A DNA stretch of 64,000 nucleotides, taken from NCBI RefSeq assembly GCF_017348835.2, contig NZ_CP071375.1; one strand, 5' to 3'. The position numbers are program-made. Numbering within the stretch: position 1 is the first letter of the stretch; each line of letters starts with the position of its first letter. This DNA is from Escherichia coli (GTDB taxonomy: Bacteria > Pseudomonadota > Gammaproteobacteria > Enterobacterales > Enterobacteriaceae). This document shows, one piece after another, positions 28,901 through 31,900 of this stretch.

Positions 28901-31900
28901 CCCACGTTGGTCACTTTCACCGTGCGGGTGATCACTTCTTTCGCCGTCACGGCCTTACCGATACTGCTGACCCAGCCACGAAACACATCCACCGTGCCGT
29001 TCGGAAAACGGATTTTATAGGCCCGCACATCCCCGCTTTCAAACCAGCCTATAAGCCCTTTCTGACCTTCTTCTCCCGGTTTCCAGGCCAGCGTAAAACT
29101 GGTATCTCCTGCAGACTTCTGCCCCTGCCCGGTCGCGGTCCAGTCCGCGTCTTCATCATCCAGGTAGTTATCATCGTAGGGTTCTGCCGTCATCTCGCCC
29201 GGCGTCAGATCCTTCACCTTAGCCAGTCGCAGCCAGTCATCGTCTGACAACGGGTTTGCATAGGCGTCACCCTGACCGTTATAAACCCACAGGGTGGTAC
29301 CGGCACCTTTTACCGGCTCAAGGGGATTTGGTGTTGACATATCGTCCTCACATCTCGTATGTAATGGAATAAGTCAGATCCGCAGAACTCCATAACGCCA
29401 TATCGTCATCACGACGATACTCATAGCCCTGCGTAACCATCGTCGTAATCAGGTCTGCCAGTGCCGGGATCGCAGTCATCGCCGGATAAATCCGGCTTTC
29501 CATCCACGAATCCAGCTCCGAATCCGGTACCTGTGCTGGTAAAAACACCTCAATATGCAGTGTGGCCCGCCAGGTATCTGCATCCAGCTCTTCACCGGTA
29601 TACTCTGCATCCGTCAGATAAACCGCGACGGCCGGAAAATCCTCTTCGTCAAAAACAACGGGGCGACCATCAAACAGCGTCGCCCCGTGTTCATGCAGCT
29701 CCAGTGCATCCAGCACTGCCGCACGGATATCAGTATGTTTCATCGTTTTATCGCAATCCTCAGTTGTTGTTTCAGCGCATATGCCAGTTCTCCGGGCAGG
29801 CGTTCACGCCGGATACGGTCAACGTTTTCATCAAACGCCTGTTTCAGTGGGGCCGCCATCGGGATTTTCACCACATCAATGGGGTAACGGTTTTTCCCGG
29901 CCACACGCTGCATGACATGCCAGCGACCATTTTTTAATCGCTGAATAAATGCCCGCTGATAACGATGCTGACCGGCTTTGAGTATGCTGTCCGGACGACG
30001 CCCCGGCATCCTGATCCCCAGCTTAATCACCGGGAGATCACCGCGGTTAACGATAATTCTGGCATTCGGATTTCTGACCGTGGCCCGTTTCAGTCTGGAC
30101 CGTTCCTTTACCAGTTTCCGGTTCACCCTGGTTTCCCGGGCAACCTGTGACGAAGACTGATTAATCGCCGTTGTGGCCACGCGGTTAATGGCCATTGCTG
30201 AAGCCGCCGGAATGGCGTTTTTACGAACCCGGCTCAGATTTTCAATCGTCTGATCAAGCCCTTTTATCGCCATAATTCACCCTGCGTTTATCGTCGCCGG
30301 TTAACGGCGGGTGGTTGACCACGGTTGAGCCAGAGATAACAGCTGCCCCCGTCATCCGGAGAAACACGATCCACCCAGAATATCTCACCATTAATGGTCA
30401 GCGTGTCACCACGCCGCACGGCACGAACCGTATCCGTCCGCACAAATAATGACGGGCTGCTTCCTTCAATACGGACCCCGCCACCGGCAAACCCCAGCGA
30501 CTCCGGATCGTCAAAAACCCCCTGAACTTCGCTGCCACACTGTGCCCCCGAGGTGAACTGCGCACAGAGCCCCATCACTTCAACAATCGTGCTGTCCACC
30601 CCGGCAAGGGCAGCATCAAAGGCATTCTGAAAATCACGCATAAACAGCCATTCCGCCATCAACGTGTGTTTTTGCATCTGAGGACATAATCAGAATCACC
30701 CGACCAACATCCGCAATCTCAACGGATTCCCCTGTTTCACCATCAATGCCACAGAGATGGAGGCAGGTCAGAACTCTGATGCGCGTTAACGCACCGGATG
30801 TATCCTCACGAACATCATGAGCCGCGGTTTCCCGCTCCCGGATCACCGTATCCCCAACCTGAACATCCTCGCCGGATGACTGTATTTCCTCTTCCCATTC
30901 CGCCACCCGCTGCGCTATCTCTGCGGCACTCCCGGATATATCCGGCTCACGCCCCAGAATCAGGGCCAGTTCATCAAGCCGTTTCAGATTTTGCTCTTTC
31001 GTTGCCATATCAGCCCCCTGTGAAAAAAGACACGGGGGCATTTCGCCCCCGCTCACGGATTATTTCACCTGTACCACCACAAACTCATCCGGGTCCGGCA
31101 ACACCATCAGCGGCGCGGACTGCGTCATGGTAAATTCACGGGCGGGATCCCCCACCGTCAGCCAGTGTTTCGGATAACGGGAAGAGGCCACCACACCTTC
31201 GGACAACGCCTGCGCATCCTGAATGGCACCGTAACAACGGATCCCATCTGCAGCAGTATTCCCCAGAACCAGCATGCCCTCCGGCAGATAACGTTTTTCG
31301 ATACCGTCTTCTGCTATATAAGACGTTTTCGCCACCACAATGGCCAGATCGCCGTAATACCCCTTGAAGGACACCACTGCGCCCAGATCTTTCACTGCCG
31401 TTTCGAGTTGAGAATTTGAACCGCGACGGGTATCCAGTTTTTCGCGGAACAGCTTAAAACCATTCAGAAGACGCCAGACGGTACCGTCCATAATGGCAAT
31501 ATTCACAAGACCGCTGGCCTGGTCGCAGTAGAGGTCAAGATCATGTGTAGGATCGAACGTGTCACGATCCTGTTTTGACCACTCCTTACCACTACCCTGA
31601 GTGATGTTATTCTTCGTCGACCTGCCAAAATCGACCTCAATTTTCTCGAACTGGTCTCCTTCCATCGTATATTTGCCATACAACACAGCATTTACCGCCT
31701 GTATTTCTTCCACCTGGACAATCGCGTGCTCTTCCTGTTTGAGGTTATCGGTAATGATACGCAGACGGCGGTAAGCCGGATCGTTCAGTTGAGCCGGATC
31801 TTCACCAGGAAGGCGCTCAACCGCCTGCTGGTAATTAAATTCGTGTTTCGGCTTGACGTAGCCCGGACGTAACACGCGGGTTTCACCACCACGATGACGC

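What the first reader, a model, noticed from the sequence alone, without database searches (positions are those of the whole stretch)
31009..31059. Terminator-like hairpin between capsid gene E and FI
On the minus strand, directly after the E stop, CGGGGGCGAAATGCCCCCG is followed by TGTCTTTTTT, then the FI ribosome-binding site. A partial terminator here could set the capsid to FI expression ratio.
Basis: seen in the sequence. Interest (0 to 1): 0.2.

Follow-up and report, generated by a model that had tools for sequence, protein, structure and literature searches.

The report
Leaky terminator hairpin after capsid gene
A strong RNA hairpin followed by a run of U sits just after the major capsid gene of a phage-21-type prophage; it is real and clearly selected, but it belongs to an already annotated, ordinary class of stem-loops inside lambdoid late operons.

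Summary
On the minus strand, 8 nt after the E stop codon (31062-31060), GCGGGGGC-GAAAU-GCCCCCGU (31052-31032) is followed by GUCUUUUUU, then the FI Shine-Dalgarno sequence and ATG (31008). The hairpin folds at -17.7 kcal/mol (z -3.7; 0 of 200 shuffles as stable). It is one of about nine strong hairpin-plus-T-tract sites in the window, against about 0.4 expected.

The region is a phage-21-type head module, 97% identical to phage 21, present in 1562 of 5426 complete E. coli genomes. Lambda-type and phi80/HK225-type modules, and six of eight distant E-family phages, carry a different-sequence hairpin in the same slot. GenBank HK225 annotates its copy as a rho-independent terminator.

The U tract is interrupted, so the terminator score is borderline. 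All tail genes lie downstream with no promoter-like site. The operon starts with a Q antiterminator gene.

Most likely this is a terminator-type hairpin that Q-modified polymerase reads through. It would then act mainly as a protective 3' structure for D/E mRNA and as a stop for unmodified polymerase. The "partial terminator sets the E:FI ratio" idea is possible but unproven.

This is a new member of a known kind, of low interest.

The parts
31060..32088 (-). Major capsid protein gene E (phage 21 gene 7), 342 aa; stop TAA at 31062-31060
   Evidence: ORF list; PF03864 E=1.4e-63; 97% identical to phage 21 M81255 gene 7
31032..31052 (-). Hairpin GCGGGGGC-GAAAU-GCCCCCGU: 5' arm 31052-31045, loop 31044-31040, 3' arm 31039-31032; 8 pairs, 7 G-C plus an outer G.U
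   Evidence: -17.7 kcal/mol, z -3.69. The inner stem is 100% paired in 18 distinct clade variants, with only C-to-U changes. L090 has a paired 1-nt deletion in both arms.
31023..31031 (-). Interrupted U-rich tract GUCUUUUUU
   Evidence: T-score 1.9-2.6 and a borderline d-score. Some relatives have GUUUUUUU (L046, L098).
31014..31018 (-). FI Shine-Dalgarno GGGGG, 5 nt before the ATG; its 5' part can pair with UCC at 31059-31057 in an optional outer helix (UCCGUGA / UCAC-A-GGR)
   Evidence: RBS annotated in M81255. The outer helix appears in the MFE and is 94% paired but broken in several relatives.
30634..31008 (-). FI (phage 21 ORF1) DNA-packaging protein gene, 124 aa, ATG at 31008
   Evidence: PF14000 E=7.8e-17; annotations
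32117..32138 (-). Sister hairpin after D/shp: UCAGGCCACC-GCGG-UGGCCUGA, tail CUGAUUUCUG
   Evidence: -18.4 kcal/mol, z -4.3. Lambda and phi80 have a canonical terminator in the same slot, annotated as a terminator in HK225.
32146..32493 (-). Head decoration protein gene D (shp)
   Evidence: PF02924; M81255 annotation
47084..47779 (-). Q antiterminator gene at the head of the late operon
   Evidence: PF06323 E=9.8e-93
46994..47020 (-). Promoter-proximal terminator candidate (tR'-like): AAAACCCGC-CCACAA-GCGGG followed by seven T and a G
   Evidence: Sequence; d-score +29; followed by three tRNA genes

Best explanation
This is a terminator-type RNA stem-loop embedded in a Q-antiterminated late operon. 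After prophage induction, polymerase that started at the late promoter and was loaded with Q transcribes through it, because FI, FII and every tail gene depend on that read-through. The hairpin forms in the finished RNA. There it gives the upstream D-E message a stable 3' end, either from the few transcripts that do terminate or after endonuclease cleavage in the U-rich spacer and 3'-exonuclease trimming back to the stem. That would prolong the life of the capsid message relative to the downstream part. Polymerases that did not load Q (spurious starts, lysogen) are partly stopped here. Shown: the structure, its selection, its position, the Q gene, and the lack of a downstream promoter-like site. 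Inferred: read-through, stabilisation, and any effect on the E:FI ratio.
For: - Stable, single-copy hairpin far beyond chance.
- Three lambdoid head lineages carry unrelated stem sequences in the same slot after E, and again after D.
- Six of eight distant Phage_cap_E phages (27-44% identity) have a strong hairpin starting -1 to +22 nt from the capsid stop. It ranks among the top four hairpins of the locus in 9 of 11 lineages.
- Across these lineages the hairpin is conserved while the U tract is not. This fits an RNA-structure role.
- Within the 21-type clade every stem substitution keeps pairing, and one relative has a paired deletion.
- A Q gene plus a strong promoter-proximal terminator head the operon.
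- No promoter-like site lies on the minus strand from 31100 to 16000, and the tail genes are co-linear.
- Q makes polymerase resistant to termination throughout late genes (PMC12360218).
- Intra-operon terminators in lambdoid late operons are recognised, with partial termination or blocking of non-antiterminated transcription as the proposed roles (PMC8022706). The same logic is given for the conAn operons (PMC8955417).
- D and E are the two most abundant head proteins, and each is followed by a hairpin (abundance from own knowledge).
Against: - No transcript data were available, so 3' ends, half-lives and read-through are all unmeasured here.
- The major tail protein V, also abundant, has no hairpin after it: the V-G spacer is 13 nt.
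- From my own recollection of Sampson et al. 1988 (not held in the library), lambda late-protein ratios were attributed mainly to translation initiation. That leaves little need for an RNA-level effect.
- Two E-family phages (Vibrio phi2, Paenibacillus Lily) lack the hairpin.
- The Q protein here has no solved relative, so its strength as an antiterminator is assumed from family membership.
- In the non-enteric hosts, hairpins without U tracts may still terminate, which weakens the 'hairpin not terminator' argument.
Confidence: 0.5

Rival explanations
1. Partial intrinsic terminator: a fixed fraction of late-operon polymerases, even Q-modified ones, release here. FI and everything downstream then receive less mRNA than D and E.
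For: The site has a G-C-rich stem plus six consecutive U on the sense strand. The d-score is borderline to positive (+5.9; +11.6 in the L046 variant). The homologous-position hairpin is annotated as a rho-independent terminator in HK225. The phage L paper lists partial termination as a possible role (PMC8022706). Demand for products is lower downstream.
Against: Q-loaded polymerase narrows the RNA exit channel and resists termination persistently (PMC12360218). The U tract is interrupted at its stem-proximal positions, and is poor or absent in phi80, Chi, K279, Seregon, Carli and PS6 while the hairpin is retained. All tail genes need read-through and have no promoter-like site of their own.
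Confidence: 0.2
2. Pure insulator: the hairpin stops only polymerases that lack Q (spurious or read-in transcription in the lysogen). This keeps downstream late genes silent, with no effect on ratios during lytic growth.
For: The logic of multiple terminators inside processively antiterminated operons is described in PMC8955417 and PMC8022706. Several other terminator-like hairpins sit on the same strand along this late operon: about 47020, 45656, 42014, 40415, 32138, 18445 and 17745.
Against: An insulator could sit anywhere, yet the position immediately after the capsid gene (and after D) recurs across lineages, including virulent Chi-like phages. The weak U tracts would make poor insulators in enteric hosts.
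Confidence: 0.17
3. Translational element: the hairpin and the optional outer helix (UCCGUGA with UCAC-A-GGR) uncouple ribosomes finishing E from FI. They partly mask the FI Shine-Dalgarno sequence and so lower FI translation.
For: The MFE structures include an outer helix that reaches the first bases of the FI SD. It is 94% paired across 18 clade variants.
Against: The outer helix is broken in several natural relatives (L043, L066, L083). It has no counterpart in the lambda or phi80 spacers. It covers only the edge of the SD. Alternative outer pairings appear in a different context.
Confidence: 0.06
4. No present function: the hairpin is a neutral leftover, for example a module-boundary or recombination scar between head genes.
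For: Mosaic joints occur nearby: L100 switches from 21-type to lambda-type within the 3' end of E and carries the lambda hairpin.
Against: Independent sequences keep the same structure at the same position in at least nine lineages. All stem substitutions preserve pairing, and there is a paired indel. The orientation is consistently sense.
Confidence: 0.05

Closest known systems
Post-E and post-D 'rho-independent terminators' annotated in phage HK225 (NC_019717; same sequences in phi80), and the equivalent lambda hairpins (AUGGCCC-UUCG-GGGCCAU after E; GCCGC-CUGU-GCGGC-U7 after D)
   Same: They occupy the same two slots in a homologous, co-linear head module (C, D, E, FI, FII, Z, U). All are G-C-rich 7-9 bp stems with short loops on the sense strand, followed by the FI or E ribosome-binding site.
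   Different: The stems and loops share no sequence similarity. The window's post-E copy has a better U run than lambda or phi80, and its post-D copy has a worse one. The phage 21 records searched do not annotate it.
Intra-operon terminators of P22-like late operons (phage L; PMC8022706)
   Same: A predicted intrinsic terminator lies at the end of the procapsid gene module, inside a single-promoter, antiterminated late operon. Its role is acknowledged as unknown, with the same two hypotheses.
   Different: The head module is unrelated (P22 coat versus lambda E family). No homology of the element was tested.
Terminators inside processively antiterminated operons (lambda N/Q; conAn of pLS20; PMC8955417, PMC12360218)
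   Same: The operon is headed by an antiterminator and contains several sense-strand terminators that modified polymerase bypasses.
   Different: Here read-through is inferred from gene content only. The hairpin is a weak terminator by score.
Intercistronic mRNA-stabilising hairpins (Rhodobacter puf operon stem-loop; REP after malE) - from own knowledge
   Same: A stable hairpin lies directly after the more abundantly needed cistron of a polycistronic message. It is expected to block 3'-to-5' exonucleases.
   Different: The element is single-copy and not REP-like. No decay data exist here. Stabilisation is an inference.

Membership tests
Rho-independent (intrinsic) terminator | G-C-rich stem of about 5-14 bp with a short loop | tested here: met
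   8-9 pairs, 7 G-C, loop GAAAU; -17.7 kcal/mol, z -3.69
Rho-independent (intrinsic) terminator | Uninterrupted U-rich tract of about 7-9 nt immediately 3' of the stem | tested here: inconclusive
   The tract is (U)GUCUUUUUU: 6 U in the first 8 but with G and C at proximal positions. T-score 1.9-2.6 against 4.0-5.4 for the clear terminators in the window (tR'-like core, 45656, 17745); d-score -5 to +6 against +29 to +47
Rho-independent (intrinsic) terminator | Sense orientation at the end of a transcribed gene | tested here: met
   8 nt after the E stop on the coding strand. The reverse strand has no T tract after the stem
Rho-independent (intrinsic) terminator | Transcript release at the site by RNA polymerase | not testable with these tools
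   No transcript 3'-end data were reachable. The Term-seq paper on O157 Sakai has no supplement held
Terminator inside a Q-antiterminated lambdoid late operon | Operon headed by a Q gene and a promoter-proximal terminator | tested here: met
   PF06323 Q at 47084-47779. Hairpin followed by seven T and a G at about 47020-46994, then tRNAs and lysis, head and tail genes on the same strand
Terminator inside a Q-antiterminated lambdoid late operon | Essential downstream genes without a promoter of their own | tested here: met
   FI, FII, Z, U, V, G/T, H to J are co-linear. There are 0 sigma-70-like sites on the minus strand from 31100 to 16000. This is a consensus scan only
Terminator inside a Q-antiterminated lambdoid late operon | Q-dependent read-through of the site | not testable with these tools
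   Needs in vitro transcription or in vivo reporters. Inferred from PMC12360218
Intercistronic mRNA-stabilising hairpin | Stable hairpin conserved in position, independent of sequence and of U tract, after the highly expressed cistron | tested here: met
   21, lambda and phi80 types plus 6 of 8 distant E-family phages; most lack a U tract
Intercistronic mRNA-stabilising hairpin | Longer half-life or higher abundance of the upstream RNA segment, dependent on the stem | not testable with these tools
   No expression data
Any curated Rfam RNA family | Match to a covariance model | tested here: not met
   The only hit in 26000-36000 is a chance miRNA match elsewhere (E 0.91)
Repeated extragenic element (REP/ERIC-like) | Multiple copies | tested here: not met
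   Single match in the window at up to 3 mismatches

The most novel reading that the evidence does not exclude
The hairpin immediately after the capsid gene (and its twin after the decoration gene) could be an ancient, family-wide device of lambda-E-type head modules. It would act at the RNA level by segmental mRNA stabilisation or defined 3'-end formation, not by termination. It has been kept from enteric lambdoids to Aeromonas, Vibrio, Xanthomonas, Sphingomonas and Marinobacter phages while its sequence turned over completely. If so, late-operon stoichiometry would have a measurable RNA-decay component that the classic translation-only account of lambda omits.
Probability: 0.3. Interest if true: 0.4.

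Novelty: new member of a known kind. Interest (0 to 1): 0.15.

Why it matters
It matters little for discovery. Such stem-loops after capsid genes are already annotated as terminators in related phages, and their presence inside antiterminated late operons is a recognised, if unexplained, feature.

The modest value is practical. This junction occurs in about 29% of complete E. coli genomes, many of them STEC prophages, and is not annotated in the phage 21 records searched. The comparative pattern (hairpin conserved, U tract not) gives a clean, cheap experiment. That experiment would separate termination from RNA stabilisation in a classic system whose intra-operon terminators still have no assigned role.

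Tried and rejected
- **Rfam.** A scan of 26-36 kb found nothing relevant.
- **Folding the 76-nt context.** This gave a weak z of -1.2, because G5/C5 runs pair in shuffles. Folding the hairpin alone was the appropriate test.
- **Sliding 32-nt MFE scan of the late operon.** At a -13 kcal/mol cut-off it returned over 100 sites in this G+C-rich coding sequence and did not discriminate. It was replaced by the perfect-stem plus T-tract scan and per-locus ranking.
- **Formal covariation within the 21-type clade.** No double compensatory changes were seen and the shuffles were uninformative, because divergence is too low. The evidence for structure comes from turnover between lineages instead.
- **Literature.** Liu et al. 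2013 ribosome profiling and the Casjens & Hendrix 2015 review are not held. The Sakai Term-seq paper has no held supplement. Searches for lambda 3'-end maps or a description of this hairpin found none.
- **Structure of Q.** The PDB sequence search with Q found no relative, so the Q21 structural mechanism cannot be transferred by homology.
- **REP or repeat element.** Rejected.
- **Bidirectional terminator.** Rejected, because there is no T tract on the other strand.

Full report
**1. Observation**

Read on the minus strand, the region runs as follows:
- The E stop codon TAA is at 31062-31060, followed by UCCGUGA.
- The hairpin GCGGGGGC-GAAAU-GCCCCCGU spans 31052-31032.
- It is followed by GUCUUUUUU (31031-31023) and CACA.
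- GGGGG at 31018-31014 is the Shine-Dalgarno sequence, followed by CUGAU.
- The FI ATG is at 31008.

The finding's coordinates (31009-31059) are exactly the 51-nt E-FI spacer, and the quoted strings are correct. The only nuance is that the hairpin starts 8 nt after the stop, and the T run is separated from the stem by G, U and C.

The gene names also hold. The upstream ORF (31060-32088) is PF03864 Phage_cap_E and the downstream one (30634-31008) is PF14000 Packaging_FI. The region is 97% identical to phage 21 gene 7/ORF1 in M81255.

**2. More than chance?**

- The site is the top entry of the tool's terminator scan.
- The 34-nt hairpin folds at -17.7 kcal/mol against -8.3 +/- 2.5 for shuffles (z -3.69; 0 of 200 as stable). 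A longer 76-nt context is uninformative (z -1.2).
- A stringent scan for >=7 contiguous pairs, >=6 G-C and >=6 T in the next 10 finds 17 hits at 9 sites in the 64-kb window. Dinucleotide shuffles give a mean of 0.43 hits, maximum 3.
- The element is single-copy and matches no Rfam family.

**3. Context**

The window carries a lambdoid prophage whose late genes all lie on the minus strand, in this order:
- Q (47084-47779, PF06323).
- A hairpin followed by seven T and a G at about 47020-46994.
- Three tRNA genes.
- A 616-aa ORF preceded by another strong terminator (45656-45638).
- Lysozyme, terminase, portal, C protease.
- D, E, FI, FII, Z, U, V, G/T, H to J, lom and a tail-fibre gene.

There is no sigma-70-like promoter match on the minus strand between 31100 and 16000. 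FI and all tail genes must therefore be transcribed through the hairpin. A sister hairpin follows D (32138-32117; -18.4 kcal/mol, z -4.3).

**4. Comparative evidence**

*(a) Within the phage-21-type clade.* I examined 80 IMG/VR loci with E at least 94% identical. The same junction is present in 1562 of 5426 complete E. coli genomes.
- The inner stem is paired in 100% of cells across 18 distinct variants.
- The only stem substitutions are C to U, giving G.U.
- One locus (L090) has lost one G and one C from opposite arms.
- There are no double compensatory changes, because divergence is too low.

*(b) Between lambdoid head lineages.* The stem sequence is completely different but the slot is the same.
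- Lambda type: AUGGCCC-UUCG-GGGCCAU followed by UGUUUCUCU.
- phi80/HK225 type: GUGGCCC-UGUC-GGGCCAC followed by CUUUCUGG.
- After D, lambda and phi80 carry a canonical terminator, GCCGC-(CUGU/UUGC)-GCGGC-U7.
- The HK225 RefSeq record annotates both as 'rho-independent terminator'.

*(c) Among eight distant E-family phages (27-44% identity).*
- Six have a strong hairpin (-14 to -28 kcal/mol) starting -1 to +22 nt from the capsid stop, inside a 55-81 nt spacer. These are Aeromonas PhAER-1, Salmonella Chi, Vibrio K279, Xanthomonas Seregon, Sphingomonas Carli and Marinobacter PS6.
- Two have no spacer and no hairpin: Vibrio phi2 and Paenibacillus Lily.
- Ranking perfect-stem hairpins within each 2.3-3.5 kb locus, the post-capsid hairpin is among the top four in 9 of 11 lineages and first in four. 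By my estimate the chance expectation is about 4% per locus.

Position and structure are therefore conserved while sequence is not. That is the signature of a selected RNA or DNA structure.

**5. Terminator quality**

I used a d'Aubenton-Carafa-type score with modern energies, so the values are approximate.

| Site | d-score |
|---|---|
| Window post-E hairpin | -5 to +6 |
| L046 variant (tail GUUUUUUU) | +12 |
| Lambda post-E | -3.5 |
| phi80 post-E | -13 |
| Window post-D | -23 |
| Chi, K279, Seregon, Carli, PS6 | -22 to -50 |
| Clear terminators in the same window (tR'-like core, 45656, 17745) | +29 to +47 |
| PhAER-1 post-capsid | +41 |

The family-wide constant is a strong hairpin. A good U tract is optional.

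**6. Mechanism**

Established knowledge is that Q loads at the late promoter, stays with the polymerase, narrows the RNA exit channel and suppresses pausing and termination across the late genes (PMC12360218). Intra-operon terminators in lambdoid late operons are recognised. The phage L genome paper says their roles are not known, and offers partial termination or stopping of non-antiterminated transcription as possibilities (PMC8022706). The same rationale is given for the pLS20 conAn operons (PMC8955417).

Combining this with the anatomy gives my best reading, at confidence about 0.5:
- The element is a terminator-type hairpin that Q-modified polymerase reads through.
- In the finished RNA it gives the D-E segment a protected 3' end, from rare termination or from cleavage in the U-rich spacer followed by exonuclease trimming.
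- It stops a fraction of unmodified polymerases.

Only the structure, its selection, the Q gene and the promoter-free downstream region are shown. Read-through, stabilisation and any effect on the E:FI ratio are inferred.

Rivals:
- A pure insulator (0.17).
- A translational role through an optional outer helix, UCCGUGA/UCAC-A-GGR, that touches the FI Shine-Dalgarno sequence. It is 94% paired but broken in several relatives and absent in lambda and phi80 (0.06).
- A neutral remnant (0.05).

Points against the favoured reading:
- There are no expression data.
- V, also abundant, has no following hairpin.
- By my recollection of Sampson et al. 1988 (not available in the library), lambda late-protein ratios were explained mainly by translation initiation.

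**7. Comparison with the known, and novelty**

The closest known things are:
- The annotated post-D and post-E terminators of HK225 and phi80 and the lambda equivalents. They have the same slot and architecture but unrelated sequence.
- The intra-operon terminator at the end of the procapsid module in P22-like phage L.
- Terminators inside processively antiterminated operons generally.
- By analogy, intercistronic stabiliser hairpins (puf, malE REP; own knowledge).

As an intrinsic terminator it meets the stem and orientation criteria. The U-tract criterion is inconclusive and transcript release is untested. It is a sequence-distinct, apparently unannotated member of a known kind, in a sequence published in 1993. 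The phage 21 records list only CDS, RBS and Tri-box features there.

**8. Verdict**

The feature is real, selected and ordinary. Interest is 0.15.

The most novel reading not excluded is that the post-capsid hairpin is an ancient RNA-stability device of E-type head modules, which would add a decay component to late-gene stoichiometry (probability about 0.3; interest if true about 0.4).

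Noticed in passing
window 32117-32138 (-): A second strong hairpin lies directly after the decoration gene D/shp: UCAGGCCACC-GCGG-UGGCCUGA, -18.4 kcal/mol, z -4.3, with a poor U tract. 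Lambda and phi80 have a canonical terminator at the same slot, and Vibrio phage K279 also has a hairpin plus T run there.
   Followed up: partly
window 32494-32521 (-): A sigma-70-like match, CTGACC-16-TACAAT (9/12), sits in the 36-nt C-D spacer just upstream of D. With the hairpins after D and E it would frame D-E as a possible separate unit. It is a consensus match only.
   Followed up: no
window 17724-17745 (-) and 18426-18445 (-): The lom gene (17772-18431, PF06316 Ail/Lom) is bracketed by two terminator-like hairpins with T runs, a moron-like layout at the end of the late operon.
   Followed up: partly
window 47084-47779 (-), 46994-47020 (-), 46624-46873 (-), 45638-45656 (-): The Q antiterminator (PF06323) has no sequence relative among solved structures. 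It is followed by a hairpin with seven T and a G, three tRNA genes (Met-CAT, Arg-TCG, Arg-TCT), and a second strong terminator just before a 616-aa DUF1737/SASA-esterase/DUF6645 ORF (43693-45543).
   Followed up: partly
L100 (E. coli OkiPb01697, NZ_AP042583) about 1760-1835: This is a mosaic capsid gene. The body of E is 21-type, but the last codons (…FVSVQLA*), the hairpin and FI are lambda-type. A recombination joint therefore lies inside the 3' end of E, and the hairpin travels with FI.
   Followed up: partly
L090 (IMGVR_UViG_2850756110_000002), E-FI spacer: The hairpin has lost one G from the 5' arm and one C from the 3' arm (a G4/C4 stem). This is a paired indel that preserves the helix.
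   Followed up: yes
GenBank MW057783.1 ('Campylobacter phage CJLB-4'), hits H40/H117: A record labelled as a Campylobacter jejuni phage matches the query with statistics identical to phage lambda itself. It is probably lambda DNA contamination or a mislabelled deposit.
   Followed up: no
window 34105-34122 (+): A terminator-like hairpin, CCGGACGTGAGAGTCCGG followed by CTTTTT, lies on the antisense strand near the B/C gene junction. Its significance is unknown.
   Followed up: no
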